Positions 17,394-43,461 are shown, numbered from the stretch's first letter. The stretch is 64,000 bases of DNA from an uncultured Elusimicrobia bacterium (GCA_963702895.1 OY969767.1:2496001-2560000), one strand, 5' to 3'. Translations and numbers: made by a program. The notes: generated by a model from the sequence alone, not told the origin.

Positions 17394-17510
17394 TGGCGGA
17401 GGGAACAGGATTCGGGCCGCTTTCATTATCAAGTTGTGGCGACCCTACCCCAAGGCCGGCAGGCCGGCTGGGGTGCGAACCTGCGGCACCCTTTCGGATA
17501 CGCCTGTTTT
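17394..17510 (-). pseudogene. tRNA-Ser 3' half with two hairpins inserted in the T-loop
   Basis: Removing 17415-17476 gives AAAACAGG-CGTATCC GAAA GGGTGC-CGCAGG TTCGAAT CCTGT-TCCCTCCGCCA (long variable arm, T arm, CCA). Confidence 0.85.
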
Positions 17511-18734
17511 TTATTGCCCATTCGTTGTTATCCCGTCCTCTTCACCCACATTGACACCCGCAAACCCAAAGGTGCGGTCGTGGTTGCGGAACCAGTCGAT
17601 CTCGCCAATGAGCTTGCGGATTTTAGGAACAGCTTTGGGATTTGATCGGCGGGCTGCCTTCAGGAGCTCACGGACCTTGGATTCCAGCACGTCTGCGGTC
17701 GCCGGGAGGTTTAACCGTGTCATGTTAAAAAAGTCGGCGCCGAAACGGCAGACCTTATGGCGCACCATGCCGTCCGGGTCTTGAAGACCTTCAAGAATGA
17801 AGTCGATGCATTCTTCAGAAAAATCGTCCAGAACAAAGCTGAACTGAAGTCCCGGCAAGGCGCATAAGGCCGCGCGCCTGTAGACGGGATCGGGATGCCG
17901 GAGCACTCCACGAACGCCATCCCAGTACGCCAGGAGGTCCTTGCTCGCCTGCCAGTTGGATTCAGGCGCCCGGCCCCACCGTTCGTCCACGCTCCGATGG
18001 CGGAGCTTTTCAAGCTCCTTCCGGGCGGCCTTGCGCTCGGGTTCATCGGAGGAGCAAATCCGCTCGACGAAGCGATCGAAGATACTTTTGCTTTCAGGCG
18101 TGACGCGCCTTTCAATGACGTTCTTGATTCTCCACGCTTTTTGGGACTCCGCTATGGATTGATCGCCATCGCCCGGAAGCGGCGTATGCATCAGGAGCAC
18201 CTGCAGGAGCGGGACCAGCTCATAGATCTTCATGTTGTCGCCCCGGGTGGGCCCTCCCATCAGAAGCATCGGGACGGCCGTGGGATGTTCGGCGCGGCGC
18301 AGAAGCTTCTGAACGGCCCGGCGTTGGAACCAGGGGACCGCAAGCTCGGCGGCTTTGCGGTCATACTCTTCGAAAGCGGCACGGGCAAGAGGCGCTGATG
18401 TCAAAGGAATGTCCTCGTCTGGGCAGGCGGCGATGATCGCCTCCACGAGCTTCGGCCATTGCCGGCTCAATGCGTCCAATGCCCGCGCCAGGCCGGGCGC
18501 GATCTCACGATACTCCCGGGCAGGCAGGGTCTGTCCAGATCCCGATAAACGCTTAACCAGAGCCTCAAGCTCCAGGACTCGGCCTATAAATTCGTCTGCC
18601 AACGGATGCCAGCCCTCGCCGGGCTTACGGCCGAACTGATCGAGACCTTTGACCAGTTCCTGATAATCGGCCAGGGTCTTTTTCCCCACCCGCTTCATCT
18701 CCGCCAAAGACGGCTTTTCGCTCAAAGTTTCCAT
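17511..18734 (-). CDS. Hypothetical alpha-helical protein with a HEAT-like C-terminus
   Basis: Long ORF; 'LRHPDPVYRRAAL' and 'LQDPDGMVRH' HEAT-like units. Confidence 0.6.
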   Translation of the reverse strand: METLSEKPSLAEMKRVGKKTLADYQELVKGLDQFGRKPGEGWHPLADEFIGRVLELEALVKRLSGSGQTLPAREYREIAPGLARALDALSRQWPKLVEAIIAACPDEDIPLTSAPLARAAFEEYDRKAAELAVPWFQRRAVQKLLRRAEHPTAVPMLLMGGPTRGDNMKIYELVPLLQVLLMHTPLPGDGDQSIAESQKAWRIKNVIERRVTPESKSIFDRFVERICSSDEPERKAARKELEKLRHRSVDERWGRAPESNWQASKDLLAYWDGVRGVLRHPDPVYRRAALCALPGLQFSFVLDDFSEECIDFILEGLQDPDGMVRHKVCRFGADFFNMTRLNLPATADVLESKVRELLKAARRSNPKAVPKIRKLIGEIDWFRNHDRTFGFAGVNVGEEDGITTNGQ

Positions 18735-18741
18735 GGTGTTC

Positions 18742-19137
18742 TCACGCCGGGCGCCCCCGTGCTTTGTCATTGAGCGAGCGGAGGTGCTCGTGGAAAGCTT
18801 CATCGGATTGTTTCTTAGCTTCCTCATATTGGATCAGCCGCCGCAGCACCGCGCGGCGCTGGCGGGTGGTCATTCGTTTCTCCGCGCGGGAAAGACTCCC
18901 ATAGAGCCAAAGAAAAGGGTCCCGATAGCTCTCACGCCCTTGCCGTATCATCGCCAACCCATGGTCCGGACGGTCGTCCCCCGCCATGGCGTCTGAAACA
19001 TGGTGACAAAAGAGCGCCAGGGTAGAGAGGAAGGCTTTCGGCACTCGAATGCGCACGGAATCCCGTGATACCTTTAGGGCAACTCTGCTGAAGCGGTCGT
19101 TCGCTCTGCGAAAGGCTTGCCGTGTACGCGTCTTCAT
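18742..19137 (-). CDS. Hypothetical basic protein
   Basis: ATGA coupling to the fic stop; same strand as both neighbours. Confidence 0.5.
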   Translation of the reverse strand: MKTRTRQAFRRANDRFSRVALKVSRDSVRIRVPKAFLSTLALFCHHVSDAMAGDDRPDHGLAMIRQGRESYRDPFLWLYGSLSRAEKRMTTRQRRAVLRRLIQYEEAKKQSDEAFHEHLRSLNDKARGRPA

Positions 19138-20318
19138 GCCGGGCGCTCTGTCCCTTCGTTGAGGATTTTTAGATAGGGCTCATAGGCAAAGACGCGGTAG
19201 GTCTGCTTGCCGGTCAGTTCGCGCACGAGCCCAAGTTTCTCCAAATTGGCCATCGCTTTGTTGATGGCCGGATAGGACATCTTAAGCTCGCGCTGCGCCA
19301 CGACAGGCGCCACCAGGACCCGGCGCTGGAGTAGAGTATGGACGCGCTCGGCGGACAAACCGACCCGGCCTAAGGTTCGAATCTTGGTTTGATGCTCCTG
19401 AAACATCGCTGCGAGTCTTCGAGCGGTCTCGCTCGCTTGGTTTCCCACTTCTTCGATGCCCTTCAAGTAAAAAGCCAGCCATGCTTCCCAGCCGCCCTCG
19501 GTGCGAATTCCTTGCAGTGCGTCGTAGTATTCGGTCCGATGCGCCTTGAAGTAGAGACTCAGATAGAGCAACGGCGTGGATATGACGCCATCGGCCAGGA
19601 GGATCAAGGTGATCAACAAACGCCCCAAGCGCCCATTGCCGTCCAGGAATGGATGGATCGTCTCGAACTGCGGATGGGCCAGACCGGCCTTGATCACAGG
19701 TGAGGTCCTCACCGGATCGTCATGCAGAAATTTCTCCAGAGCAGACATCGCTGGGATCACTTCATGGGGAGGCGGCGGGACATAGCGGGCGTTGCCGGGC
19801 CGTGAGCCGCCAATCCAATTTTGAGAGCGGCGAAATTCGCCGGGTTCTTTATCGCTCCCTCGACCGCCCTTGAGCAGCACGTTGTGCATCTCGCGGAGAA
19901 GCCTCAAACTTAATGGGAACCCTTCCTGGATTCGCCGGATGCCGTACAGAAGAGCCGCCACGTAATTGGAGACTTCCTGAACGTCATTCACGGGCACGCC
20001 AGGGGCCGCTTCGTTTTCGAACAGCAGCAGCTCGGAGAGCGAAGATTGCGTCCCTTCTATCTGCGAAGAGAGGACCGCTTCTTTGCGGATATAGGAATAG
20101 AGGAAAAGATTGGGGTCAGGCAGGAGCGCCGTGACTCCGTCCAAGCGGCCAAGCGCCCGATTGGCCCGTTCGAGAAGATCCTGAAGCTCAGCGTCAAAAA
20201 TAATCGGGGGATGGGGCGGCAGGGGTGCGGGGATGAATACGCGATAGGATTCCTCCGGCATTGAAACCAGCTGCCAGTGGCCCGCCCGAAGATTTTCCGT
20301 CTTCTCTAATTCACTCAT
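19134..20318 (-). CDS. Fic-family protein with C-terminal HTH
   Basis: EAVLSSQIEGT; canonical HPFLDGNGRLGR. Confidence 0.92.
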   Translation of the reverse strand: MSELEKTENLRAGHWQLVSMPEESYRVFIPAPLPPHPPIIFDAELQDLLERANRALGRLDGVTALLPDPNLFLYSYIRKEAVLSSQIEGTQSSLSELLLFENEAAPGVPVNDVQEVSNYVAALLYGIRRIQEGFPLSLRLLREMHNVLLKGGRGSDKEPGEFRRSQNWIGGSRPGNARYVPPPPHEVIPAMSALEKFLHDDPVRTSPVIKAGLAHPQFETIHPFLDGNGRLGRLLITLILLADGVISTPLLYLSLYFKAHRTEYYDALQGIRTEGGWEAWLAFYLKGIEEVGNQASETARRLAAMFQEHQTKIRTLGRVGLSAERVHTLLQRRVLVAPVVAQRELKMSYPAINKAMANLEKLGLVRELTGKQTYRVFAYEPYLKILNEGTERPA

Positions 20319-20573: not shown

Positions 20574-20768
20574 TGGAGGGAGAGGTCCGCCGCACTCCCG
20601 GCGGATCCGCCGGACGTCTGGCGGAGATTCGTCCGCCACTGAGTCGCTGGCGGACCCGCCTACGTCTTAGTGGCGGGGAACCTTCGGTACGCCCTCCACT
20701 CACCTGGCGGGCGTCCGCCTGTAGTGTGGCGGACGGTTTCCCGCACAATGCTTTTCAAGAGCATCGCC
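20574..20768 (-). pseudogene. tRNA-Ser(UGA) 3' part carrying six inserted hairpins (partner of the 5' half at 38556-38594)
   Basis: Removing the hairpins gives GGCGATGCTCTTGAAAAGCATTGTGCGGGAAACCGTACCGAAGGTTCGAATCCCTCTCCCTCCA; 16 bp shared with 38556-38571. Confidence 0.85.
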
Positions 20769-20789
20769 TCGTGGCGCTTGTGTAGGTCG

Positions 20790-20852
20790 TGAGCGGAGGG
20801 AGAGGGATTCGAACCCCCGGTACAGTTTCCTGTACACCTGTTTTCAAGACAG
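20790..20852 (-). pseudogene. tRNA-Ser(UGA) 3' half, integrase-proximal att junction
   Basis: CTGTCTTGAAAACAGGTGTACAGGAAACTGTACCGGGGGTTCGAATCCCTCTCCCTCCG; 13-bp core shared with 37294-37306. Confidence 0.9.
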
Positions 20853-20957
20853 CTCACCCTCTGTTTCGACGGTTGCTTGATTCAGTTTGATTTATGGAAG
20901 AGAAACGCTGATTGGATTCGTCCCATTTCCATCTCCATTTACAGCCCGATTTACAAC

Positions 20958-22013
20958 TTATGCGATTACGGGTGGCTTTGGCAAGGTCAAAACCCCTTCG
21001 ATGTTGTGAATTTCATCGGTCAGGTCCTTCCTATCCAAGTGCCCGTAATGTTGCTCCGTGACGACCGAAGTGGAATGCCCCAATATCTTTGAAACCTTAT
21101 ATATCGGGGTACCCCCGCTCAGCATCCGTTGCGCGAATGTGTGACGCAGACAATGGAAAGTGAAATCCATCACTTGCGCATCCTTACAACAGTCCTTAAA
21201 CCATTCGCTAACTGTAGTGCAGTGAACGGCATCCAGCAAACGCGTCTCTGGATCTCGGCCAATGGCACGCTGAGACACGACTTCCGCCACTTCTCGCGTG
21301 AGTGGCACATGACGACTGCGCTGAGTCTTCGAATTCGGAACGAAGATGTAGGGCTCCGGGTAAGGGATGAAATCTCTGACCCTTGTCGCCCATATTTCCC
21401 CGATCCGCATTCCGGTATGAATCGCGATGACGTAGTAAGGCCAGAGCCGTGTATGCTTTGCCACGATCGGCGTTAGCCTTTTTTCCTCATCAGGTGATAG
21501 ATACCGGACTCGCGCTTTCGGAACTTTGGCCATCGGGACACCCCAAGCGGGATTGTCTCCGAAATACATCCGGCGTTTCTTGACCCAATTGATAATCGCC
21601 TTTAATCCGGCGTGATACCGGTTCACGCTGTTCAGCGAAATGTGGGGGCTCGAAATGCCGGGGATTGTCTTTTCGACAAACCTACGGAAACCCTCCACAT
21701 CTTTTGGGCCTATGTCTCGTATGCGCCGATTGCCGAAGTAACGCTTTATCCCCTTGATGTATGCCCTATCTCCCTTCCAAGTCCTCTTAAAGGGCCGGGC
21801 GTATTCATCAAAGAACTCGTCACAGGCATCACTCAACTTCAAGTTATCGTTGCCCAATTGGCCTGTCGCCATGCGCTTGAGCATTTCTGACTTCTTGTGT
21901 GTCTCCGCTTTTGCGGCATTACCGCGCGTCTTGTAGCCTTGCTTCCATTTCGTCTGTTTGCCGACTTGGAAGCGGTAACACCATTCTCCGCTTGGCAGTT
22001 GTCTGACCGACAT
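20958..22013 (-). CDS. Tyrosine integrase
   Basis: TGMRIGE, HCLRH, LGH and HY catalytic set; N-terminal arm-binding-like segment. Confidence 0.95.
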   Translation of the reverse strand: MSVRQLPSGEWCYRFQVGKQTKWKQGYKTRGNAAKAETHKKSEMLKRMATGQLGNDNLKLSDACDEFFDEYARPFKRTWKGDRAYIKGIKRYFGNRRIRDIGPKDVEGFRRFVEKTIPGISSPHISLNSVNRYHAGLKAIINWVKKRRMYFGDNPAWGVPMAKVPKARVRYLSPDEEKRLTPIVAKHTRLWPYYVIAIHTGMRIGEIWATRVRDFIPYPEPYIFVPNSKTQRSRHVPLTREVAEVVSQRAIGRDPETRLLDAVHCTTVSEWFKDCCKDAQVMDFTFHCLRHTFAQRMLSGGTPIYKVSKILGHSTSVVTEQHYGHLDRKDLTDEIHNIEGVLTLPKPPVIA

Positions 22014-22051
22014 TTAAGCCTCCTGTCGGCCAAACCTACCGCACGGGTACA

Positions 22052-22261
22052 TTATAGATCCCATTTGAGATTGTGTGGGTTGTTGGCCGCGAGCCATTTC
22101 TCAATATCAATTCGACGAAAAATGACCCTTCTACCGACATGAATGAACGGAATTCGCGCATTACTGGTCATTTTTCGGATCGTTGACTTCTTAATCCGAA
22201 GCAATTCAGCCAACTCCGTAACGTTCAAGAAATCTCGCGGACTCTCAATCGGTGTCGTCAT
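22052..22261 (-). CDS. Excisionase-like HTH protein
   Basis: FLNVTELAELLRIKKSTI...IPFIHVGRRVIFRRIDIEKWL. Confidence 0.88.
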   Translation of the reverse strand: MTTPIESPRDFLNVTELAELLRIKKSTIRKMTSNARIPFIHVGRRVIFRRIDIEKWLAANNPHNLKWDL

Positions 22262-22297
22262 AAGATTATTTTTCAAAAACAAACCCAATCGAAGCCC

Positions 22298-22963
22298 TTA
22301 TTCATCGCTTGGCTCCGAGCCGTGTGTCTCATCCGCAGAATCAGGAGACCGAGCATACTCCGGCCCTTTTCTTCTGGCCTGTAACCGTTCCAGTTCATGG
22401 ATGCACCTGAGGAGCTTCCGTTCGATGCTCGTTTCATACTGGGATAGCAGTTGAAGGCTCTCCTGCACTGTCTGGAATGAAAGACCGGGCACAACATCTG
22501 CTCCCCCAGTCATTCGGCTGAGGCGGTCGATCTGTTTCTGAGCACGCGCCTTTCCCTCTGGGTCAAGAATCTGCTCGAATGGCTCACATAATTTATCCTC
22601 CATGGGGTTCACTATTGCGACATATCGCTTCGCTTTTTCCCGTGCCTCTACCAGCCATTGCGTCAAAAGGCCTCTCATCAAAAGTCCATGTTCCGCATTT
22701 TCTGACCGTCGGAGCCTCCACATCAAACTCGCGACTCTATCAGTCATGAATTGTTCCATGGAACCCTCCGGCTTGTATAAATGATGGACCCCTTCGCTCA
22801 GTTGTTCACATTCTTGGGGATCTTCGTTCGGCAGGACTGCACGTTCCGATGTAAGGCCGTGCTTCAAGGCATTCCTCGCGATAATTGCTTTGCCCGCCAG
22901 ACTTTTTACACCTCCTGCTTTCGCATTGATCCGATTGGCTTGATTTTGCTTTTCAGTGGCCAT
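22298..22963 (-). CDS. Hypothetical mobile-element protein
   Basis: MATEKQNQANRINA...ARNALKHGL...WRLRR pattern; GGGGG RBS. Confidence 0.7.
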   Translation of the reverse strand: MATEKQNQANRINAKAGGVKSLAGKAIIARNALKHGLTSERAVLPNEDPQECEQLSEGVHHLYKPEGSMEQFMTDRVASLMWRLRRSENAEHGLLMRGLLTQWLVEAREKAKRYVAIVNPMEDKLCEPFEQILDPEGKARAQKQIDRLSRMTGGADVVPGLSFQTVQESLQLLSQYETSIERKLLRCIHELERLQARRKGPEYARSPDSADETHGSEPSDE

Positions 22964-25445: not shown

Positions 25446-25466
25446 ACCTCTTGAAGGTAATGTCGA

Positions 25467-25733: not shown

Positions 25734-25823
25734 TCCATGTGATGCTTTGCATGGAATTATTATGCGGAATGCAAATTACCCGAAAGGGCGTATACGCCCT
25801 TTATGCGATGGAAATTAGGTAAT

Positions 25824-35517: not shown

Positions 35518-35519
35518 TC

Positions 35520-35612: not shown

Positions 35613-35661
35613 TTTCATTCACGCTCCCGCTCAGTTCAGCATGTGTAGAGCACACCTGTTT

Positions 35662-36270: not shown

Positions 36271-36322
36271 TTAACGTTAAGCTATCCCGAGTGACAACAT
36301 AGCGATTCCGCCAACAAAAGAA

Positions 36323-36412
36323 TGGCGGAGGGTGAGGGATTCGAACCCCCGATAAGCTTTCGCCTATAACGCTTTTCAAGAGCGTCGCCTTCAACCGCTC
36401 GGCCAACCCTCC
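36323..36412 (-). tRNA. tRNA-Ser(UGA), intact, 90 nt with encoded CCA
   Basis: GGAGGGTTGGCCGAGCGGTTGAAGGCGACGCTCTTGAAAAGCGTTATAGGCGAAAGCTTATCGGGGGTTCGAATCCCTCACCCTCCGCCA folds as a full class II cloverleaf. Confidence 0.96.
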
Positions 36413-36425
36413 AAATCTATTCGAC

Positions 36426-37178
36426 TCAGGTCGCATGGGCGACATTTCGCCATGCCCCATCTTTCAACTGCACATAATGCATAACGATCTGTTCAGTTGC
36501 GTTTTGAATGTCTATGGTCAGATCAAAAATATCCTTCCATAAATCATCAATTTTCATTTCGGTTAAATCTCCGAGGACCTGCTGTGCCGCGCCATCCGCA
36601 AAATGGTATCTGGTCGAACCAGCCGTGGCTCCCCTTGATATATAGGGCGTTCTCTTCTCCTCTGGTTCAACTAAATCAAAACGATTCCTAAAGCCTCTCA
36701 ATAACTCGGCGGGGTCGTAATGGAAAGTGACTTTATTTCGAATTCGTAACAGGACCTTATATGTCCTGCTGTTGGCCTTCCCACCAACAGCGAACGCGAC
36801 AAATTCTTTCCACTTGGCTCGCGCTCGCTTATTCATTTTGTCTACTATCTTTTTCATGAGCGGATGTTTCAGCGCATTTTCGTTGTCGACAATGTAGTCA
36901 ACGACGCTAAAGATCAGGCTAATATATTGACGCTGTAGGTGATAAATCAGGCCCCCATATTCACCCCATTCGGGAGTCGCCGCCCACTCGCCCTTAGGTG
37001 TCTGCTTTTTCAAAGTCTCCCATGCCGCCGCAACATCAGCTAAGTCATTATGGGCCAGAGCAAAACTAAGCACCAAACCAGCGACCCCGCTCTCATCTGG
37101 ATCAATCTTCGTAAAGACCTGAGCACTAAAACTCTCCAAGTCGGCCAGCTTGAATTCTCTGATTTCACCGATGCTCAC
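36426..37178 (-). CDS. Hypothetical protein, possible HEPN-like RNase
   Basis: Helical protein with RNKVTFH (RN-x4-H). Confidence 0.55.
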   Translation of the reverse strand: MSIGEIREFKLADLESFSAQVFTKIDPDESGVAGLVLSFALAHNDLADVAAAWETLKKQTPKGEWAATPEWGEYGGLIYHLQRQYISLIFSVVDYIVDNENALKHPLMKKIVDKMNKRARAKWKEFVAFAVGGKANSRTYKVLLRIRNKVTFHYDPAELLRGFRNRFDLVEPEEKRTPYISRGATAGSTRYHFADGAAQQVLGDLTEMKIDDLWKDIFDLTIDIQNATEQIVMHYVQLKDGAWRNVAHAT

Positions 37179-37293
37179 ATTTACAACTCCCTACGGCCTC
37201 ATTTACAACCTGCCCATAAAAACAGGGCTATCTCTGTCATCCATCGTATCACTCGCTCCGTCGAACAGGTGCGGTAGGTTGGCCGGTTTATTG

Positions 37294-37334
37294 GTTTTCA
37301 AGACAGGCTCCTTAAGCCGCTCGGACATCCCTCC
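37294..37334 (-). pseudogene. tRNA-Ser(UGA) 5' half, distal att junction
   Basis: GGAGGGATGTCCGAGCGGCTTAAGGAGCCTGTCTTGAAAAC, then non-tRNA sequence; acceptor and anticodon stems pair with 20790-20852. Confidence 0.9.
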
Positions 37335-37360: not shown

Positions 37361-37378
37361 CCACTCTCCCAACCCTCC
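37361..37378 (-). pseudogene. Short tRNA-Ser 5' relic
   Basis: GGAGGGTTGGGAGAGTGG. Confidence 0.55.
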
Positions 37379-37471
37379 GCTGATCGCTTTCCTCATTTTG
37401 TCACTACGTCCAACCTTCCTTGACTCTAACAGGTTGGGACAATCCTCCCGCTCTATCATGGCGGGAGGACG

Positions 37472-37724
37472 CCTTCGGTACCCTTACGGGCACAGCTGTT
37501 TTCCCCTCCACTACATTGTTGGAGGGCCCGCCTAAGCCGGAGTGGCGGGAAGACATCCGGATCCCTCCTGCCCATTCCTTAAGGAGGAGGACCGCGCGCC
37601 AGTTACGCATCGGCGCGAGGTAAACCTCCGCCACATCCGACACACGTCAGTCGGATCCGCCCGAAGTGTGGCGGACGACAGGCGGAGAGCGCCTGTCGTG
37701 TGGCGCTCACTCTCCCAAGCCTCC
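37472..37724 (-). pseudogene. tRNA-Ser(UGA) pseudogene with eight hairpin insertions
   Basis: GGAGGCTTGGGAGAGTG|GTTTA|ATCCGGATGTCTT|GAAAACAGCTGTGCCCGTAAGGGTACCGAAGG after removing 37626-37707, 37563-37620 and 37504-37549. Confidence 0.85.
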
Positions 37725-37739
37725 GAAACGTGGATAAGA

Positions 37740-38093
37740 TCATTTATCTGCTTTCGGTGGGGGCACGGTATGCTCAAGGCATTGGATAAGGGATGGAAGA
37801 TCCTTCATGACTGTGTCCCAAACAATCTCAAGATCAATATCATCATAGTCATGAATCAAAACGCTGCGAATACCGATCATCTGCTGCCAGGGAATATCCG
37901 CCAGAGCCGCCCGCGTCTCGGGCGAAATGCGACGAGACGCTTCCCCAATAACTTCCAGCCGCCGTATAACAGCATCCTGGCATTGCGAATCGGACAGAAA
38001 GGTTTCGTAAGAATGATGGACCAGATACTGGCGGGCTCCTCGAGCCGCGTTCAGGATATCGAGCAGATACCCCGCATCACGCGGCGGCAGCAT
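37740..38093 (-). CDS. HepT-like (DUF86) ribonuclease toxin
   Basis: AVIRRLEVIGEA, IPW, RSVLIHDY. Confidence 0.9.
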   Translation of the reverse strand: MLPPRDAGYLLDILNAARGARQYLVHHSYETFLSDSQCQDAVIRRLEVIGEASRRISPETRAALADIPWQQMIGIRSVLIHDYDDIDLEIVWDTVMKDLPSLIQCLEHTVPPPKADK

Positions 38094-38394
38094 AGAGAGA
38101 CTGCGCTGTGGAGAGGATTTCAGTCCGTCGCAAATAATTGGCGCTTCGCTCCAGCCCTCGACGGCTAACCAAATCGACAGGACGCTGGAACAACCTGCTC
38201 AATTCCTCTTGCATCTGGACGAAATCGAAGAGTGTAGGGTGCGACTGTGGCTTGAATGTCACTAACAAATCGATATCGCTCGTATCGGAAAAATCCGGAC
38301 GCAAAGCAGACCCAAAAAGAAATAGTTCCTCGATTCCCTTTTGACGGCAAAACTGAGCAAGACGCTCACGATCAATGTTTATCTTCGGGCTCAT
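38077..38394 (-). CDS. MNT nucleotidyltransferase antitoxin
   Basis: LFGSALRPDFSDTSDIDLLV, RPVDLV. Confidence 0.9.
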   Translation of the reverse strand: MSPKINIDRERLAQFCRQKGIEELFLFGSALRPDFSDTSDIDLLVTFKPQSHPTLFDFVQMQEELSRLFQRPVDLVSRRGLERSANYLRRTEILSTAQSLYAAAA

Positions 38395-38555
38395 AGCTTC
38401 TAGATTATATGTCCTGTACCCACAGCTTTCCACAAAAGGTTTAGACCTTCATACGCCCGACTTTACAACAACAGGACACAAAAGTGTAAAACTCGGTACA
38501 ACTCCGTACAAGTCCTTTGAATGAAAAACTGCGCGACGTTTGGCCGTAGGGTAAC

Positions 38556-38594
38556 TTTCAAGAGCATCGCCCTATACCACTCGGCCATCCCTCC
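38556..38594 (-). pseudogene. tRNA-Ser(UGA) 5' half, att junction
   Basis: GGAGGGATGGCCGAGTGGTATAGGGCGATGCTCTTGAAA, then non-tRNA sequence. Confidence 0.88.
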
Positions 38595-38632: not shown

Positions 38633-39190
38633 TCATTTGACGATCGGTTCATAACGGATCGTCGTTGTGCTCCATTTCACGAAATCCATTCTAATTCGGT
38701 CGACTTTCTCTCCGCCATCCAGATAATACCCTCTCGGATTCGATAACTTGCCGCCTTTAAAATCATACGTTCCACCTGCACATGTCCCTGAGTGCGAGTA
38801 TGTTACAGGAGCGCCGTTTAATTTCTCGAGTTCCTTCAGACTTGTCCCTAGCGTGATACCGTTTTGTAACTGCCATAAGCTCTTATCCCCGGAAATAGTG
38901 AATGATACGAGCATGGCATTCTCGCCCCATTTATCGATTTCGACCTCGGCTTTCTTTAATTTATCATCCGGAAAGATTACTATTCCGGGTTCTGTCTCTT
39001 CAGGACCAACTGCGGCACCAATTACGTTCTTCTTGCCTAGGCGTTCTTCTAATACGCTCACAGAGGTCTGGGCCGTAATCCATCCTGCACGTATGCCCGG
39101 CACAAGCTTCCAGTCATCCTGTTCAGCGGTACTGATCGAACAAAGAAACATCAGTATGCTGCCGATACTGGCAGTTTTACGAAGTCCCAT
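38633..39190 (-). CDS. Hypothetical secreted protein
   Basis: GGAGG RBS, signal peptide, 'GITLGTSLKELEKLNG'. Confidence 0.65.
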   Translation of the reverse strand: MGLRKTASIGSILMFLCSISTAEQDDWKLVPGIRAGWITAQTSVSVLEERLGKKNVIGAAVGPEETEPGIVIFPDDKLKKAEVEIDKWGENAMLVSFTISGDKSLWQLQNGITLGTSLKELEKLNGAPVTYSHSGTCAGGTYDFKGGKLSNPRGYYLDGGEKVDRIRMDFVKWSTTTIRYEPIVK

Positions 39191-39249
39191 AATCCCTCCT
39201 ATTCGTGCGGTGAGACTATATGCAATTAAGCTTGCCATATAGACGACCG

Positions 39250-39690
39250 TTGACAACTTCATTGACGGCCACACCATCTATTTCAGGCTATGCCCGCCAA
39301 CCTCTGTCTCACTCACCCTGTCGTCCCGGTCCCCCATTTAATTTAACCGGCCGGGACGTACCGACTAAGATTCGCTCGCCGGAGGCTCGCTTCACGGTCG
39401 AACGGTACGAACAGGTGCGGCCGCCTTATCGGCCCTCCGAAGCCTTGGCGAAGGAGGGTAGGTCGCCAGACTTCCGGCGACTTCCGCCACAAGACGGGCG
39501 GACTCGACGGCTGTGTGTCGAGCACCGGACGGCTTGGCGAGTTGGCTGGTTTATTGGTTTTCCCACCTTCGCAACAACGCGCTGCCGCGCCGCTACGGTG
39601 GGCAAGCAAGACATCCAGATCCCTCCTTCCCATTCTTTAAGGAGGAGGGCCGCGCGCCAGTTACGCATCGGCGCGAGGTAAACCTCCGCG
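39250..39690 (-). repeat. Degenerate att junction: tRNA-Ser D-loop/anticodon relic fused to a homolog of the 37180-37300 arm, with several hairpin insertions
   Basis: 39608-39689 nearly matches 37550-37631; gttggctggtttattggttttc matches 37278-37299; cgaacaggtgcgg is also shared. Confidence 0.8.
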
Positions 39691-40035
39691 TGATAGTCCT
39701 TTGATCTGACGATGGAGGGCAGGAATTTCATGCGCAATGACATCCCAAATGATGTGCACATCGAGCCCAAAATATTCGTGGGCAATCACATCGCGCAGTC
39801 CGGCAATTTTCCGCCAATCGACTTCCGGGTATTTATCCTTTAAGGATGGAGAGAGTCGCTTGACCGCCTCACCGATGATCATCAGATTGTGGAACACGGC
39901 CTGTGATGTCTTTGGGTCCGCGAAGAAAGCTTCTTTGGAAAAGCCTGCGGAAAACTCAAGAATCCTTTCGCAGGATTGTTGGATGTCTTTTAAGAACAGC
40001 GCGTCTTCACGCGACACGGCGGGCGTCTTCTTCAA
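39661..40035 (-). CDS. Second HepT-like (DUF86) toxin; C-terminus runs into the tRNA relic
   Basis: AVFHNLMIIGEA, VDWRKIAGLRDVIAHEY. Confidence 0.88.
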   Translation of the reverse strand: MKKTPAVSREDALFLKDIQQSCERILEFSAGFSKEAFFADPKTSQAVFHNLMIIGEAVKRLSPSLKDKYPEVDWRKIAGLRDVIAHEYFGLDVHIIWDVIAHEIPALHRQIKGLSRGGLPRADA

Positions 40036-40318
40036 TGAAGGGCCGAATTTCAGGACGAATAGCCGGGCGAGTCAGCAGATCAACGGGGCATCCGAGCAGG
40101 TCCTCCAGATAGAACTTGAGCTTCATGTATTGGTCATAGGTCGGCGGTTTGATGAAATCCACAAGCAGATCCAGGTCACTGTCTGAGCGTTCGTCGCCGC
40201 GAGCAACGGACCCAAAGACATGAAGGGCGGCCACCCCAAAATCCTTCAGGTCTGGTTGAATGTTGTTCATGCGGCTCTTAACCTGTGCAAGATTCACAAT
40301 GGCCCCATTATACTCCAT
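40007..40318 (-). CDS. Second MNT antitoxin
   Basis: VFGSVARGDERSDSDLDLLV, PVDL; start uncertain. Confidence 0.88.
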   Translation of the reverse strand: MEYNGAIVNLAQVKSRMNNIQPDLKDFGVAALHVFGSVARGDERSDSDLDLLVDFIKPPTYDQYMKLKFYLEDLLGCPVDLLTRPAIRPEIRPFIEEDARRVA

Positions 40319-40334
40319 CCCTCATCCAGCCACG

Positions 40335-40367
40335 CACTCGGTACGCCCACCACACACCCACCCCTCC
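40335..40367 (-). pseudogene. tRNA-Ser 5' relic with insertion
   Basis: GGAGGGGTGG[insert]CCGAGTG; same leader (GGGTCGTGAGC) as the relic ending at 42353. Confidence 0.6.
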
Positions 40368-40407
40368 GCTCACGACCCTTCTTGTGCGCCATGCACCGAT
40401 GCACGAC

Positions 40408-40818
40408 TTACCCTTTGATGCGGCCTGCCCAGCTTTCAACCTTGAGTGAGCTGCGATCTGCCAGCCGGTCAAAGTCTCTGTCCGCGTGCAGAAGCGTAAG
40501 CCCATTCTGTAAAGCTTTAAAGGCAATGAGAAGATCCATCGATTTCGCGGACACTCCTTTTCGTGCCAGCCGTGCCCCCCACTCCGCCGCTTCGCTCCAA
40601 TCCGTTTCTAAAAACGGCAATACCTGCAAGCTCCGCAACCGGTGCTTCAGATGCTCCGCTTCCTTGGGGGTCCGGACACCCCGAAGAATCTCAAACAGGA
40701 TGGGGGGGGTGGTCGCTGCCTGATTGTCCAGCACGAGCGAGCCCACGCGATCTTTCAACAAGTCATGCGGCTTGGGACCCAGAACAAATAACCAGGCTGA
40801 TGTGTCGATTAAGAACAA
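40408..40818 (-). CDS. vapC: PIN-domain VapC-family toxin
   Basis: LIDTSAW, E, DLLIA and DRDF acidic tetrad. Confidence 0.9.
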   Translation of the reverse strand: MFLIDTSAWLFVLGPKPHDLLKDRVGSLVLDNQAATTPPILFEILRGVRTPKEAEHLKHRLRSLQVLPFLETDWSEAAEWGARLARKGVSAKSMDLLIAFKALQNGLTLLHADRDFDRLADRSSLKVESWAGRIKG

Positions 40819-40821
40819 GTG

Positions 40822-41019
40822 TCAGGCCCGCGAGCGCGAGAGCTTGCTGGTCGTCCAGTTGAGTCGGTATCGGCTAAACTCCTTGACGAACGTCTTACGC
40901 TCGATCTCCGCAAGGATGTTCCGGAGACCCGCCTCAAGGGCTTCTCTCTGGGAAGCCGCTTTCATGGCGCGCATCGCTTGAACCAAAAGGCGTTCATCGA
41001 TATTGGTCGTAATTTTCAT
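40822..41019 (-). CDS. vapB: VapB-family antitoxin
   Basis: MKITTNIDERLL RHH-like start, directly upstream of the PIN gene. Confidence 0.8.
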   Translation of the reverse strand: MKITTNIDERLLVQAMRAMKAASQREALEAGLRNILAEIERKTFVKEFSRYRLNWTTSKLSRSRA

Positions 41020-41102
41020 TTCATCCTCCTGATTCACTTGAGTATGGCTATACTTGCCATAAAGTATATGGCATCTGTTGCCATATTTCAACAGATGGGC
41101 GC

Positions 41103-41181
41103 CCACTCGGCCTGAGCGCTCTACGTTTATGGCGCTCAGGTGCCGCCTCCTTTGAGAAATAGGATGCGGCGCCATCTCTCC
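41103..41181 (-). pseudogene. tRNA-Ser 5' relic with two hairpin insertions
   Basis: GGAGAGATGG[41111-41171]CCGAGTGG, followed by a possible degenerate TTGAAA arm at about 41081-41102. Confidence 0.65.
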
Positions 41182-41240
41182 AAGATTTTGGCCCGTTCAA
41201 TGTAATCTAGAGGCCATGGTGCATGGACAATTTTTATTGT

Positions 41241-41654
41241 TTATCGAGAGGGCGCAATGAGCGCGATGACAACTCCGGCGAGCAAACATTGAACCATGCC
41301 CCCCACAAACCAGCCCACGGCCATCGAGACCGGAATCGGCACCATAAAATACGTCCCCAGGCTCATGCCCGAGGCCATCAGAAGCCCGATGAGCGCGCCA
41401 AACCGCAAACCCTGTCCGACACGCGCTTTTTGAGGTTCGAAGCCTTTCAGATAAAGAACGGGCAGTATGGCGGCATCGATGAGATACATCACCCACATGG
41501 TCCACATCAGCGCTTGCATCTCTGCCATCGGCCGCCATACGCTCGCTGTCGCTTCATACGCGCTTTTCATGAGAACACCGTGAATCACGAAATCCGTTAC
41601 AAAAAGAACCCCCGCCACCGCCGCCACCGCCGCCAACCATCGTTTCATCGTCAT
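41241..41654 (-). CDS. Four-TM membrane protein
   Basis: Hydrophobic segments, GLRFG motif, AGGAGG RBS. Confidence 0.7.
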   Translation of the reverse strand: MTMKRWLAAVAAVAGVLFVTDFVIHGVLMKSAYEATASVWRPMAEMQALMWTMWVMYLIDAAILPVLYLKGFEPQKARVGQGLRFGALIGLLMASGMSLGTYFMVPIPVSMAVGWFVGGMVQCLLAGVVIALIAPSR

Positions 41655-41673
41655 GTCAAGTTCCTCCTTTTCT

Positions 41674-42057
41674 CTAAATATTGATCGATCCCCCGTTTGC
41701 GCGATTTGGGAATGATACTTCTAAGACGACGCACCCCACGTCCGTTTGGAACGGGCCATGAACCTCTCCGGGTGGCCGACTTGCATAGTGTCCGCTCTCA
41801 AGCCAAAGGTCAAAGGCTTTGTCATAAAGTCTGCCACTGACTACAAATATTTCTTCAGGATAATCGTGGCTCTTTCCCCCCAATGGAGTCGTGTCAGCGC
41901 CAGGGAGAAAACGTGTCAGCCGCGTATACTCTCCCGTTTCCTTGTCGATGCTAAGGGTCACCTCCTCGGCCATTCCCTCAATACCTTGGACGGGGGACCA
42001 ACGAGCGTTTTGAGCCGGTCTCAAGGAGTTCCAGTAAGCGGTTGTTGATTTCGACAT
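41674..42057 (-). CDS. ChrR-like cupin-domain protein
   Basis: HDYPEEIFVVSG...YASRPPGEVHGPF. Confidence 0.85.
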   Translation of the reverse strand: MSKSTTAYWNSLRPAQNARWSPVQGIEGMAEEVTLSIDKETGEYTRLTRFLPGADTTPLGGKSHDYPEEIFVVSGRLYDKAFDLWLESGHYASRPPGEVHGPFQTDVGCVVLEVSFPNRANGGSINI

Positions 42058-42134
42058 GCCGTTTTACTCTTGATCAAAATGTCCTGGGTCAAACCCAGGA
42101 CTTCCCAACTCCATACCACTCCGTTTACAACCTA

Positions 42135-42353
42135 CCTGGGAAACTCCTTACCACATCGTCAACGCCCGACACACGTCCGTCGGATCCGCCCGAAGTGTGG
42201 CGGACGACGGGCGGAGAGCGCCTGGTGTCTGGCGCTCGCGCGGCCCCGTCTCTTGCATCGTTCGTCCCTGGCGAACTTATTGGTCGGGACCGTCCCGGCT
42301 ATTATCGCTCACAATCGCGAGCGTGATAAAGAGGATAGGACGGCCACCCCTCC
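42135..42353 (-). pseudogene. tRNA-Ser 5' relic with multiple hairpin insertions
   Basis: GGAGGGGTGGCCG at 42353-42341; the hairpin block at about 42165-42236 closely matches 37636-37707. Confidence 0.65.
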
Positions 42354-42355
42354 GC

Positions 42356-42631
42356 TCACGACCCTTCCTGGTTTTCGATCGCCTCGAGCGACTGGGCCAC
42401 GGACGCATTGTCGCTGGGCAGGCAAATCACGCGCTCGCGGCCAACCTCGGTCCGCAAAACGGTCAGGACCTCGTCGAGCCAGGACGGGCCGACGGCCAGG
42501 ACCCCGCTGAAGTCGAGCTCGATCCGGTCCCCCGGAGCGGGTTTGAAATAGGCCTTGATGGCGAGCCCCGCTTCCCGGCCGGATGGCCGAGAGGTCAGGA
42601 TTTCCCCGAATTTACGGACTTCGACTTTCAT
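42356..42631 (-). CDS. STAS-like DUF4325 protein
   Basis: LTSRPSG, LDFSGV, SWLDE. Confidence 0.8.
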   Translation of the reverse strand: MKVEVRKFGEILTSRPSGREAGLAIKAYFKPAPGDRIELDFSGVLAVGPSWLDEVLTVLRTEVGRERVICLPSDNASVAQSLEAIENQEGS

Positions 42632-43461
42632 GCGATCCTCCCGTCCGCTATTTCCGCTTCGGCGGGCCCGGCGGCGTTTAACTTATCGCCGCAGGGCCAG
42701 AGCATCAGCGTGACCGTGCCCTTCGTATGATGAAACCGTTTATCCAGCAGCTTGGCGCACCGCTCCCCTTGTTCTCCGTAGGAAACGCGGCCTGTCCCGG
42801 AAATGCAGGCGATGCCCCCGCCCGGAGTCTTCACCATGGTGTTTTTGACAAACTTTAATCCATTCCCCCGCCGCTCCGGCGCCCGGCCGGAAATGATCGT
42901 GTCGAACGCCGCGGTCAAAGCGGCCTGCTCATCCGGCAGTTCGGGATGGACTTTCATCAACGATTGATAGACGCCCTGGCCCCGGTCGGCGATGCAAATC
43001 CAAAGATGACGCCCGGTGACTTGTGATTCAAACCAGCAGCCGGGAACATCCCGCCATTGTCCGAGGTTGTGGTCGAACGAGTTGTTTCCGACTTCGCCCG
43101 CCGTGGAAATCACGAGCGGCAGAAGATTCTCGGGCAGCCCGTTCCTGAGAAAGGATTTTAAATGGGGCAGCCGGGCGGTGAAAATTTCCCGCGTTTCGCT
43201 GACCGACGCCTCCGGGCTTTGGGGCGCCGCCGGGGCGTTCGCCCAACGCGACGCCGCTTCGAAATCCGGTACCCCGGCCAGCGCGTAATAGACAAGCGGG
43301 GCCGACCCTTTGATCTCAAGAAGCCCCTGCTGGGTCAGAGTACGAAGATGGCGATGAATTACCTGAGGAGAGATTTTCAGGATATTTCGCAACTCAAAAG
43401 GACGGATCTTCCCGCTTTTCTCAATGATTTGAAGTATTTTGCCTCGCGTCTCTGTCTTCAT
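42628..43461 (-). CDS. wHTH plus HATPase-like protein, partner of the STAS-like gene
   Basis: N-terminal wHTH; EVGNNSFDH, IADRGQG, RGNGL. Confidence 0.8.
   Translation of the reverse strand: MKTETRGKILQIIEKSGKIRPFELRNILKISPQVIHRHLRTLTQQGLLEIKGSAPLVYYALAGVPDFEAASRWANAPAAPQSPEASVSETREIFTARLPHLKSFLRNGLPENLLPLVISTAGEVGNNSFDHNLGQWRDVPGCWFESQVTGRHLWICIADRGQGVYQSLMKVHPELPDEQAALTAAFDTIISGRAPERRGNGLKFVKNTMVKTPGGGIACISGTGRVSYGEQGERCAKLLDKRFHHTKGTVTLMLWPCGDKLNAAGPAEAEIADGRIA

What the first reader, a model, noticed from the sequence alone, without database searches (positions are those of the whole stretch)
17394..43461. tRNA-punctuated, integron-like cargo array built at tRNA-Ser(UGA)
Seen: all on the minus strand, eight 5'-side tRNA-Ser relics (ending near 37334, 37378, 37724, 38594, 39690, 40367, 41181, 42353), one intact tRNA-Ser(UGA) (36323-36412) and only three 3'-side relics (17394, 20574, 20790). 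The copies differ in sequence. Most begin within 60 bp after the stop of a 1-2-gene cargo unit (HEPN-like gene, MNT-HepT, secreted protein, VapBC, cupin plus membrane protein, ATPase-STAS), giving a repeating [arm - cargo - tRNA] unit. Only one integrase is present. Inference: repeated integration into the anticodon loop, each element supplying the next target tRNA. If the internal tRNA later recombines with the distal 3' half, the element body is lost, a hybrid tRNA is regenerated and the cargo stays. That would explain the excess of 5' halves, making tRNA genes the functional equivalent of attC sites. I know of no described system with this layout, but could not search.
Basis: partly seen in the sequence, partly recalled or inferred. 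Interest (0 to 1): 0.95.

Follow-up and report, generated by a model that had tools for sequence, protein, structure and literature searches.

The report
Stacked mobile islands at tRNA-Ser
The only serine tRNA(UGA) gene of this uncultured bacterium sits inside a pile of mobile-DNA insertions: one intact 16-kb defence island that split the older tRNA gene and brought its own replacement, plus remains of earlier small insertions, which is an unusual mirror-image form of a known way bacteria collect genes at tRNA genes.

Summary
One intact tRNA-Ser(UGA) (36412..36323, minus strand) is preceded by two clear 5' halves broken in the anticodon loop (38594, 37334), one plugged whole pseudo-tRNA (37724), one N-type piece (39620) and four short stubs. 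Three 3' halves follow it (20863-20790, 20769-20574, 17512-17394).

Rejoined in silico, the halves at 37334 and 20863-20790 give a canonical tRNA-Ser(UGA). So a 16.4-kb element (37293..20853) sits between 13-bp repeats. It holds an integrase, a primase-like gene, an Hma defence system and the genome's only tRNA-Ser(UGA). It split the older tRNA without repairing it.

The halves at 38594 and 20769 form a second, outer pair. Integrase homologues normally sit just upstream of an intact tRNA. In two complete elements they duplicate its 5' half, so displaced 5' halves are expected.

A conserved ~135-nt arm follows four junctions here. It recurs in five metagenome contigs as [Ser 5' half | arm | small cargo | tRNA-Ser].

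Close precedents exist: 5'-fragment tRNA islands, CIME accretion arrays, tycheposon islands and tRNA-dependent lysogeny. This scan has already noted integrase-less 5'-half cassette arrays in at least eight other genomes. Verdict: a new variant of a known kind.

The parts
36323..36412 (-). Live tRNA-Ser(UGA) 'C'. It is the only one in the genome and lies inside element E3, 13 nt after the stop of the 250-aa gene.
   Evidence: ARAGORN; Rfam 58.1 bits. It has no leader/trailer pairing, unlike many native tRNAs.
20840..37306 (-). Element E3, with its two 13-bp direct repeats CTGTCTTGAAAAC at 37306-37294 and 20852-20840. About 16.4 kb lies between the repeats.
   Evidence: Direct repeats. Rejoining 37334..37294 to 20839..20785 gives a canonical tRNA-Ser(UGA).
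37294..37334 (-). 5' half 'B' (q1-41) of the tRNA that E3 split. This is the left junction.
37164..37302 (-). Left (P') arm of E3. It has a conserved proximal block and GTTGTAAA-type repeats and ends at the start codon of the 250-aa gene.
   Evidence: Alignment with 6 arms from other DNA; nhmmer E=1e-36 (this arm is part of the profile); motif count.
36426..37178 (-). First cargo gene of E3, 250 aa, with no family match.
   Evidence: No match in Pfam, PADLOC, PHROGs or NCBIfam.
26356..35517 (-). Hma defence system: HmaA helicase (32023-35517), HmaB methylase (29183-32026) and HmaC ATPase (26356-29166).
   Evidence: Full-length PADLOC matches with E=0; Pfam.
22953..25445 (-). Primase / primase-polymerase-like gene, 830 aa. 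This is the likely replication module of E3.
   Evidence: PHROG DNA primase and polymerase/primase families; CHC2 zinc finger.
20958..22013 (-). Tyrosine integrase, 351 aa, uninterrupted.
   Evidence: PF00589; phrog_1; homologues at 66% and 59% identity.
20853..20961 (-). Right (P) arm with arm-type repeats, followed by 'x'. 'x' is a shortened 5' half without a D arm that stands where homologues carry a full tRNA 5' half.
   Evidence: Alignment with L033 and L034; nhmmer repeat hit at 20961-20922; x plus B' is not called a tRNA.
20790..20852 (-). 3' half 'B'' of the tRNA that E3 split. This is the right junction.
38556..38594 (-). 5' half 'A' (q1-39) of an older, A-type tRNA-Ser.
   Evidence: 37/39 identity to the intact tRNA of L074; a 16-nt repeat is shared with A' (15 of the 16 nt found by BLAST).
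20574..20769 (-). 3' half 'A'' (q23-86), 20 nt after B', with three hairpin inserts.
   Evidence: 61 of 64 aligned nt are identical to the A-type tRNA. The inserts belong to a genome-wide repeat: 93 hits, 88 of them outside the window.
17394..17512 (-). Oldest 3' half 'Z'', diverged, with an insert in the T loop. It lies next to the conserved yaeQ-like gene.
   Evidence: YaeQ homologues are present in relatives.
17511..20318 (-). Three genes between A' and Z': a Fic protein, a 131-aa protein and a 438-aa HEAT-like protein. They have no integrase and are probably the right-hand body of an older element.
   Evidence: Pfam. They are not orthologous to the genes that follow tRNA-Ser in L033.
37361..37725 (-). 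Plugged pseudo-tRNA 'N' (37725-37472) of the same-genus native type, plus a second leader+q1-18 stub (37382-37361).
37740..38547 (-). Unit U5: a divergent arm (38547-37437 region; arm hit at 38547-38437), then MNT (38077-38433) and HepT (37740-38093).
   Evidence: Pfam; weak nhmmer hit, E=0.44.
38633..39620 (-). Unit U4. It holds the N-type tRNA piece q23-36 (39620-39607), a plugged loop, the proximal arm (39562-39541), the distal arm (39323-39239) and a 214-aa gene (38633-39277).
   Evidence: nhmmer E=5.5e-5.
39661..40381 (-). Unit U3: stub J3 with its leader (40381-40358), MNT (40007-40318) and HepT (39661-40035).
40408..41181 (-). Unit U2: a weak stub J2 (41181-41172) and VapB/VapC (40822-41175 and 40408-40818).
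41197..42367 (-). Unit U1: stub J1 with its leader (42367-42341), an arm (42185-42104), a cupin gene (41674-42057) and a small protein (41241-41654, or 41197-41538 in another frame).
   Evidence: nhmmer E=3.5e-5.
42356..43461 (-). Leftmost pair: a 277-aa wHTH protein and a 91-aa DUF4325 (STAS-like) protein. Its status as cargo is uncertain, because no arm or tRNA piece was detected upstream.
   Evidence: Pfam. The arm profile finds nothing at 43462-43600.

Best explanation
The locus is an integration hot spot at tRNA-Ser(UGA). It is used by a family of Elusimicrobiota tyrosine integrases that cut in the anticodon loop and work on the 5' side of the tRNA gene.

Shown:
1. The newest layer is an apparently complete 16.4-kb element, E3. 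Read along the minus strand it holds the left arm, a 250-aa gene, tRNA-Ser(UGA), a T5orf172 gene, HmaABC, a primase-like gene, the integrase and the right arm.
2. E3 lies between the two halves (B, B') of an older tRNA-Ser gene.
3. E3's own att site keeps only a D-arm-less stump of a 5' half, so the split tRNA is not repaired.
4. E3 carries the cell's only tRNA-Ser(UGA).

Inferred:
5. An older layer did the same to an A-type tRNA (halves A and A'). This gives the nested order A > B > live tRNA > B' > A'.
6. The units further left hold VapBC, two MNT-HepT pairs, a cupin and a putative secreted protein. They are the left-hand parts (arm, first cargo, 5' part of the tRNA then in use) of still older insertions. 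Their integrases and right-hand bodies have been lost, so they resemble CIMEs in an accretion array.
7. A separate, genome-wide process has since riddled the dead tRNA pieces with small hairpin repeats. It probably also produced some cargo-less stubs (37378, N).
For: E3 and the B/B' pair:
- B plus B' gives an 88-nt tRNA-Ser(UGA) with perfect stems. x plus B' gives none. The live 5' half plus B' gives a malformed call.
- 13-bp repeats mark both ends of E3.
- The anticodon stems pair only within A/A', B/B' and the live tRNA. Acceptor pair 7:66 is A-T in all relics and T-A in the live tRNA.
- A and A' each match the same A-type tRNA, at 37/39 and 61/64.

The integrase family:
- At 18 of 22 homologue loci an intact co-oriented tRNA lies 78-229 nt downstream of the integrase. 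At one locus it lies 795 nt away, at one it overlaps the end of the match, and at two there is none.
- G247:C1 and G247:C12 hold 18.8-kb and 13.7-kb elements bounded by 43-nt and 39-nt copies of the tRNA 5' half.
- Where homologues have a full 5' half, the window has 'x'.

The arm:
- The left arm of E3 aligns over about 135 nt with the G247:C1 arm and with five metagenome junctions.
- A profile of that arm hits the 2.72-Mb genome only inside this array. The sole exception is one E=8.4 hit.
- GTTGTAAA occurs 6 times against 0.84 expected, and 5 of the 6 lie in arms.

Other:
- HmaABC is complete.
- There is only one tRNA-Ser(UGA).
- Hairpin inserts are genome-wide.
- Cargo-less nested replacement is seen at tRNA-Pro(CGG).
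Against: - No excised circle or empty site could be shown. The one public run found holds only relatives' tRNAs.
- The unit between A and B has no right arm and only 20 nt between B' and A'. It therefore does not look like a decayed copy of E3.
- Three other contigs with the same arm (L067, L073, L074) show no 3' relics after the live tRNA. Nesting alone does not predict this.
- Stubs J1-J3 are 10-13 nt long and cannot be assigned to a tRNA type.
- The native-type pseudo-tRNA N lies inside what I call an imported unit.
- No close relative was available to show gain or loss of whole units. Same-genus genomes are only about 65% identical in a flanking protein.
- Only the integrase is shared with the two complete G247 elements.
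Confidence: 0.62

Rival explanations
1. Plain tandem accretion. Every unit was a canonical 5'-fragment element, or a composite moved en bloc, that repaired the tRNA with its own 5' half and later lost its integrase. On this view the 3' relics and the position of the live tRNA come from unrelated later events.
For: - This is the family norm.
- In L067 the outer relic matches the terminal tRNA at 39/40, while an inner relic has a foreign stem. That fits en-bloc transfer.
- L067, L073 and L074 lack 3' relics.
- The tRNA-fMet locus of this genome shows a canonical integrase-less unit with an exact copy of the promoter plus q1-34.
- CIME accretion is documented (PMC5704250, passages read).
Against: - The anticodon stems of A, B and the live 5' half (ATGCT, CCTGT, ACGCT) cannot all have paired with one constant 3' half.
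- B plus B' is a perfect tRNA, and the two halves flank the live tRNA.
- The right end of E3 has no usable 5' half.
- The order of the five pieces is mirrored.
Confidence: 0.17
2. The [arm - cargo - tRNA] units are cassettes that are inserted and removed one at a time by an integrase supplied in trans. The tRNA acts as an attC-like site, and element bodies are shed by recombination between the internal tRNA and a distal 3' half.
For: - The same conserved arm is joined to different cargo and different 5' relics in 5 metagenome contigs.
- No integrase homologue was found in the 20 kb of L074.
- The same 41-nt 5' relic is joined to two different arms in L067 and L073.
- The tRNA follows the cargo stop within 5-60 nt.
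- Earlier notes of this scan describe integrase-less 5'-half cassette arrays in other phyla. These notes are unchecked.
Against: - The Ser units lack a right arm with arm-type repeats.
- No circle, and no population difference by whole units, was seen.
- The live tRNA is not a hybrid.
- The integrase is not of the integron type: 49 bits against a 265-bit cut-off.
- There are no attC-like folded sites.
Confidence: 0.13
3. No integrase is involved in most of the array. On this view the short tRNA pieces are by-products of the genome-wide process that duplicates parts of tRNA genes and plugs them with hairpin repeats, and the cargo genes are ordinary neighbours.
For: - 36 of 48 tRNA genes have same-strand partial copies nearby.
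- Hairpin repeats cluster at tRNA genes.
- Whole-tRNA nesting without cargo is seen at tRNA-Pro(CGG).
- N, the 37378 stub and B follow one another with no gene between them.
- Only two non-Xer integrase genes are present in the genome.
Against: - Integrase-type arms with repeats follow four junctions and occur nowhere else in the genome.
- The same arm stands next to an integrase-bearing element in G247:C1.
- The cargo is of the typical mobile kind: toxin-antitoxin pairs and a defence system.
Confidence: 0.08

Closest known systems
Genomic islands in tRNA genes with a displaced 5' tDNA fragment (anticodon-loop sublocation). Islander lists 159 of 3919 islands of this kind (PMC4383910, Table 1 passage read). 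Zhao & Williams 2002 was seen only as a citation in PMC6563490.
   Same: A tyrosine integrase, a crossover in the anticodon loop, and a displaced 5' half on the far side of the element. Homologue elements are bounded by 39-43-nt copies of the 5' half.
   Different: Element E3 does not restore the tRNA. The locus has at least 6 layers, whereas Islander found only 4 arrays of three or more islands. Most layers here have no integrase.
tRNA-dependent lysogeny of actinobacteriophages (Guerrero-Bustamante & Hatfull 2024, PMC10865867; abstract and outline read).
   Same: [quoted passage not shown]
   Different: The element here is not a phage by the genes seen. It has an integrase, a primase-like gene and a defence system, and no virion genes were detected. 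The host is an Elusimicrobiota bacterium. Its relatives in the same integrase family do restore the tRNA. Nothing here has been tested by experiment.
CIMEs and site-specific accretion arrays at ICE/IME attachment sites (review PMC5704250, passages read).
   Same: Units that have lost integration genes, keep att-site remains, and sit in tandem with a functional related element.
   Different: The units here are very small (0.3-1.3 kb, one or two genes). They keep a left arm but no right arm, and they are separated by 5' parts of a tRNA instead of 3' ends.
Tycheposon-seeded genomic islands of Prochlorococcus (bioRxiv 10.1101/2020.12.28.424599, passages read).
   Same: The tRNA acts as the seed. 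tRNA-specific tyrosine recombinases are used, with successive integrations, degenerate remnants, scattered partial tRNAs and defence cargo. Ser(UGA) is among the targets.
   Different: No sequence relation was tested. The passages read do not describe replacement of the whole tRNA or arrays of 5' halves.
Integrons.
   Same: Only the outline: a row of small, mostly one- or two-gene units in one orientation next to one integrase.
   Different: There is no IntI-type integrase, no attI or attC, the integrase lies at the far end inside a 16-kb element, and the sites are tRNA halves with a 135-nt arm.

Membership tests
tRNA-gene islands of tyrosine integrases (Islander type, 5'-fragment class) | A tyrosine integrase gene lies inside the island. 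| tested here: met
   PF00589, E=2.5e-21; phrog_1, E=6.5e-60.
tRNA-gene islands of tyrosine integrases (Islander type, 5'-fragment class) | The crossover lies inside the tRNA gene, in the anticodon loop. | tested here: met
   The 13-bp repeat covers the loop. The 5' halves end at the loop.
tRNA-gene islands of tyrosine integrases (Islander type, 5'-fragment class) | The island's att site carries a tRNA fragment, so that integration restores a functional tRNA. | tested here: not met
   x plus B' is not called a tRNA and scores 30.2 bits on tRNA-Sec only. The feature is met in homologues G247:C1 and G247:C12.
tRNA-dependent lysogeny | [quoted passage not shown] | tested here: met
   13-bp core; no tRNA at the right junction.
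tRNA-dependent lysogeny | [quoted passage not shown] | tested here: met
   tRNA-Ser(UGA) lies inside E3 and is the only one in the genome.
tRNA-dependent lysogeny | The element is a temperate phage. | tested here: not met
   No virion or terminase family was found among the E3 genes scanned. All 10 were scanned with Pfam and 7 with PHROGs.
tRNA-dependent lysogeny | The element-borne tRNA is required for stable integration. | not testable with these tools
   This needs genetics.
CIME accretion array | The units lack integration and transfer genes. | tested here: met
   No integrase lies between 36426 and 43461.
CIME accretion array | The units keep both attL and attR. | tested here: inconclusive
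   Left arms are detectable at 4 junctions. Right ends are only tRNA 5' parts, and no right-arm repeats were found.
Integron | An IntI-type integrase. | tested here: not met
   TIGR02249 scores 49 bits against a cut-off of 265.
Integron | Cassettes are bounded by attC sites. | tested here: not met
   The boundaries are tRNA halves plus a 135-nt arm. The hairpins present belong to a genome-wide repeat.
Tycheposons | Membership in the tycheposon recombinase clade and shared replication modules. | not tested
   No tycheposon sequence was compared. Only the architecture, read from passages, was compared.

The most novel reading that the evidence does not exclude
In this integrase family some elements have given up repairing the tRNA they cut. 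They hand the cell a complete replacement tRNA placed directly behind their first cargo gene. The only tRNA-Ser(UGA) then passes from element to element, each newcomer inserting into its predecessor's tRNA. The left-hand modules that stay behind ([arm - cargo - tRNA 5' part]) are kept, and can be moved in trans, because the arm and cargo are transcribed together with an essential tRNA. That would make a tRNA-anchored, integron-like collector of toxin-antitoxin and defence genes. It may be linked to the lineage's odd habit of renewing tRNA genes by nesting a new copy inside the old one.
Probability: 0.25. Interest if true: 0.8.

Novelty: new variant of a known kind. Interest (0 to 1): 0.55.

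Why it matters
It gives a worked example of how an uncultured, small-genome bacterium gathers defence and toxin-antitoxin genes at one essential tRNA gene.

It suggests that 'replace the tRNA, do not repair it', so far described for actinobacteriophages, also occurs in a non-phage defence island of a different phylum.

It ties a recurring pattern of this scan, integrase-less cassette arrays marked by tRNA 5' halves, to a concrete integrase family and a conserved arm. Both can now be searched for and tested.

Island finders that look only for a tRNA gene plus a displaced 3' fragment would miss or mis-bound such loci.

Tried and rejected
- Reads for circles or an empty site. One public run was found, holding 0.06 of the sampled words and kept as contigs only. 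When laid, the joints across 20816-20824 to 36325-38568 had sides of 20-28 nt at 85% likeness. They come from other organisms' intact tRNA-Ser genes, so they say nothing about excision here.
- Rfam in E-value mode did not score any relic as tRNA.
- The sigma-70 promoter scan found sites before two cargo operons and none in the E3 arm. It is uninformative for co-transcription with the tRNA.
- Synteny test. The Fic and HEAT-like genes after A' are not orthologues of the Fic and M1-peptidase genes after tRNA-Ser in L033.
- The 250-aa cargo protein and the 194-aa cargo protein of L074 are unrelated.
- E3 backbone genes other than the integrase are not found in the two G247 elements.
- The two homologue loci without an adjacent tRNA (L038, L040) show no tRNA-like remnant. 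No second non-repairing case was found.
- Same-genus genomes. G003 has tRNA-Ser(UGA) about 1.4 kb from yaeQ but on its other side, and the contig ends 23 nt upstream of the tRNA. No empty-site comparison was possible.
- I suspected a possible further arm at 43462-43600 by eye. The arm profile did not detect it.
- Williams 2002 (PMC100330) is not held. PMC9897764 gave no usable passage.

Full report
WHAT IS THERE

The window is positions 2,496,001-2,560,000 of a single-contig 2.72-Mb genome. Earlier notes of this scan call it an uncultured Elusimicrobiota bacterium. ARAGORN and Rfam find one tRNA in the window, tRNA-Ser(UGA) at 36412..36323 on the minus strand. The whole genome has 48 tRNAs and only this one reads UCA.

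- Two are unmistakable 5' halves that end in the anticodon loop. I call them 'A' (38594..38556) and 'B' (37334..37294).
- Three are 3' halves. 'B'' (20863..20790) has an intact T arm. 'A'' (20769..20574) starts 20 nt after B'. 'Z'' (17512..17394) lies next to a yaeQ-like gene that relatives also have.
- In a gapped alignment, A' matches an A-type tRNA-Ser at 61 of 64 aligned positions. Three inserts of 40-47 nt sit in its variable arm and T loop. Z' has one insert in its T loop.

OTHER RELICS

The same-genus genome G003 has a tRNA-Ser(UGA) of a different sequence type. Using it as the query changed my reading of the remaining relics.
- The relic at 37724 is a nearly whole pseudo-tRNA of that native type (q1-16 at 15/16, q23-35 at 13/13, q36-67 at 31/32). 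Hairpin repeats sit in its D, anticodon and T loops.
- 37382-37361 matches leader plus q1-18 at 22/22.
- The relic placed at 39690 is really a hairpin repeat. It is followed by q23-36 of the native type (39620-39607, 13/14), a plugged anticodon loop and then an arm.
- The relics at 42353, 41181 and 40367 are only 10-13-nt stubs.
- The stubs cluster far beyond chance. GGAGRGNTGG occurs 8 times in the window against 1.5 expected, and 6 of the 8 lie on the minus strand within 6 kb. Two stubs share an identical 24-mer.
- The hairpin inserts belong to repeats spread over the genome, often beside tRNA genes. The 37724-37335 stretch has 41 hits, 37 outside the window. A' has 93 hits, 88 outside.

THE CURRENT ELEMENT, E3

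B and B' share a 13-bp repeat that covers the anticodon loop. Three rejoining tests were run in a script.
- B joined to B' gives an 88-nt tRNA-Ser(UGA) with perfect stems.
- The sequence as it stands at the right junction ('x' plus B') gives no tRNA.
- The live 5' half joined to B' gives a malformed call.

The anticodon-stem strands pair only within A/A' (ATGCT/AGCAT), B/B' (CCTGT/ACAGG) and the live tRNA (ACGCT/AGCGT). Acceptor pair 7:66 is A-T in every relic and T-A in the live tRNA. The live tRNA therefore came in whole.

The 16.4 kb between the repeats forms one element. Read along the minus strand it holds:
- a left arm;
- a 250-aa gene of no known family;
- the tRNA, 13 nt after that gene's stop;
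- a T5orf172 gene;
- a complete Hma defence system, with full-length HmaA, HmaB and HmaC matches;
- a primase-like gene;
- the integrase;
- a right arm.

The region is slightly poorer in G+C than its flanks, 0.49-0.55 against 0.56-0.61.

THE INTEGRASE FAMILY

Two homologues were found in public genomes at 66% and 59% identity. A phylum sample added more: 18 of 401 genomes had a match at E<=1e-30, counting G000. Of 22 homologue loci examined:
- 18 have an intact, co-oriented tRNA 78-229 nt downstream of the integrase;
- one has it 795 nt away;
- one has it overlapping the end of the match;
- two have none.

The targets span many isotypes. An alignment of the integrase 3' ends shows arm-type repeats, about 60 nt of spacer and then a full tRNA in L033 and L034. 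At the same place the window has 'x', an acceptor-like stretch joined to the anticodon stem without a D arm.

In genome G247 two complete elements could be bounded.
- The first is 18.8 kb, with a 43-nt copy of the tRNA-Ser(UGA) 5' half at its far end.
- The second is 13.7 kb, with a 39-nt copy of the tRNA-Ser(GCU) 5' half.

So the family normally carries the 5' half, repairs the tRNA at its integrase end, and displaces the host's 5' half. This is the less common orientation, but it is documented.
- Islander counts 159 islands with a 5' fragment among 3919 (PMC4383910, passages read).
[quoted passage not shown] I did not read the 2002 paper itself.

Displaced 5' halves are therefore what this family leaves behind, and no special deletion step is needed to explain their excess.

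THE ARM AND ITS RECURRENCE

Directly after B comes a stretch that aligns over about 135 nt with the far-end junction of the G247:C1 element. A scan of metagenome contigs with a 23-nt degenerate pattern from this stretch gave 10 hits. Five are true junctions (L067, L071, L072, L073, L074) and five are chance matches.

All five true hits show the same layout: a tRNA-Ser 5' half ending in the loop, the arm with 3-5 GYYGTAAA-type repeats, and then a start codon. In three of them one or two small genes follow, and an intact tRNA-Ser(UGA) lies 5-27 nt after the stop. L067 and L074 hold further units and stubs upstream. L074 also has a plugged pseudo-tRNA just before the junction, as the window does.

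No homologue of the integrase was found in these contigs, including the 20 kb of L074. The cargo is varied and mostly of unknown family.

A profile of seven arms, which includes the window's own, was run over the whole genome. It hits only this array: 37302-37164, 42185-42104 (E=3.5e-5), 39323-39239 (E=5.5e-5), 38547-38437 (E=0.44), 39562-39541 and the right-arm repeats. The only other hit has E=8.4. GTTGTAAA occurs 6 times in the window against 0.84 expected, and 5 of the 6 lie in arms.

NESTED OR TANDEM?

Pure tandem accretion of 5'-half carriers keeps one 3' half for ever. It cannot explain three mutually incompatible stems, three 3' relics, or an element whose right end cannot repair the tRNA. 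The mirrored order A > B > live tRNA > B' > A' is what nesting predicts: each newcomer inserts into the whole tRNA brought by its predecessor.

Nesting alone leaves other things unexplained.
- It does not explain the absence of 3' relics in L067, L073 and L074.
- It does not explain the 20-nt 'body' between B' and A'.
- In L067 the outer relic matches the terminal tRNA at 39/40 while an inner relic has a foreign stem. That fits en-bloc transfer of composite arrays, a process known for CIME-ICE tandems (PMC5704250, passages read).

I therefore take the locus as a mix. Nesting is shown for E3 and likely for the A layer. Older layers are undecided.

THE GENOME-WIDE BACKGROUND

- 36 of 48 tRNA genes have same-strand partial copies nearby.
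- tRNA-Pro(CGG) is a whole gene with 25-nt and 23-nt flanks lying in the anticodon loop of an older copy. That older copy's tail carries a hairpin plug. Similar upstream pieces occur at six other tRNAs.
- 14 of 48 tRNA genes have a leader/trailer inverted repeat of at least 7 bp, against 3 of 938 mismatched control pairs.
- The live tRNA-Ser(UGA) has no such repeat, which fits a foreign origin. The G003 tRNA has 9 bp. The trailer of B' is the exact complement of the leader of stubs J1 and J3.
- A second process, with no visible integrase, therefore also renews and scraps tRNA genes here. It probably made N, the 37378 stub and all the plugs.
- The genome has only four PF00589 genes. Two are Xer-like by length and score.
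- A canonical integrase-less unit lies at tRNA-fMet. It holds one Sel1-repeat gene, arm repeats on both sides, and an exact copy of the promoter plus q1-34.

COMPARISON WITH WHAT IS KNOWN

- The non-repairing att site plus a replacement tRNA matches 'tRNA-dependent lysogeny' (PMC10865867, abstract read). The element here has no phage structural genes that I could detect.
- The row of integrase-less units beside a live element matches CIME accretion.
- It also matches the tRNA-seeded island model of tycheposons (bioRxiv 10.1101/2020.12.28.424599, passages read).
- It is not an integron.
- This scan has already noted integrase-less cassette arrays bounded by tRNA 5' halves in at least eight other genomes of other phyla. 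Those notes are unchecked by me.
- New here are the cognate integrase in place, the conserved arm, and the replacement-tRNA variant.
- My literature searches did not turn up a non-phage island that replaces its target tRNA, or an array of this depth on the 5' side. These were three keyword searches in an open-access library, not a proof of absence.

LIMITS

- No reads, circles or sister strains were available.
- Relatives are distant.
- Stubs J1-J3 are too short to type.
- The leftmost gene pair (42356-43461) may be core rather than cargo.
- Co-transcription of cargo and tRNA is only inferred from spacing.

Noticed in passing
G000:C1:909250-909640 (outside the window): tRNA-Pro(CGG) is a whole gene with 25-nt and 23-nt flanks. 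It is nested in the anticodon loop of an older copy of itself, whose T loop carries a two-hairpin plug. Upstream pieces ending at q36-50, 16-26 nt before the live gene, occur at six other tRNAs.
   Followed up: partly
Whole genome G000; the trailer of B' at window 20789-20780 and the stub leaders at 42367-42358 and 40381-40372: 14 of 48 tRNA genes have a leader/trailer inverted repeat of at least 7 bp that extends the acceptor stem. tRNA-Leu(GAG) has 15 bp. Only 3 of 938 mismatched control pairs reach 7 bp. The 14 genes include most of those whose split older copies I read, but the link was not counted. The live tRNA-Ser(UGA) has no such repeat.
   Followed up: partly
G000:C1:374560-376330 (outside the window): tRNA-fMet has an exact copy of its promoter plus q1-34 lying 1.46 kb upstream. 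Between the copy and the gene sit one Sel1-repeat gene and CCGATCA repeats on both sides. There is no integrase inside. A 211-aa integrase-family frame lies about 6 kb away.
   Followed up: partly
L024 (G003:C287) 2006-2950: In the same-genus genome a single 241-aa membrane-protein gene sits between tRNA-Ser(UGA) and a displaced copy of its tail (q70-85 plus trailer). This is a one-gene insertion on the 3' side. The contig ends 23 nt upstream of the tRNA.
   Followed up: no
G247:C1 223900-224053 and G247:C12 400406-400700: Both tRNA-Ser genes that follow integrase homologues are themselves followed by repeated copies of their tail plus trailer, interrupted by hairpin repeats. The tail-array habit is therefore shared across the class.
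   Followed up: no
L067 4487-5494 and L074 10868-12040: A Y1 (IS200-like, RAYT-type) transposase gene lies 0.8 kb after the tRNA-Ser array in L067. An IS481-type transposase gene lies 58 nt after the tRNA in L074.
   Followed up: no
window 63058-63067: Another match to the tRNA-Ser 5'-end pattern lies on the minus strand, about 1.9 kb downstream of tRNA-Ser(GCU). That tRNA lies just beyond the window end, at G000 2560967-2561059.
   Followed up: no
window 39661-39696: The last ~12 codons of the HepT gene of unit U3 run into the hairpin repeat that precedes the next junction. The gene's C-terminus is therefore repeat-derived.
   Followed up: no
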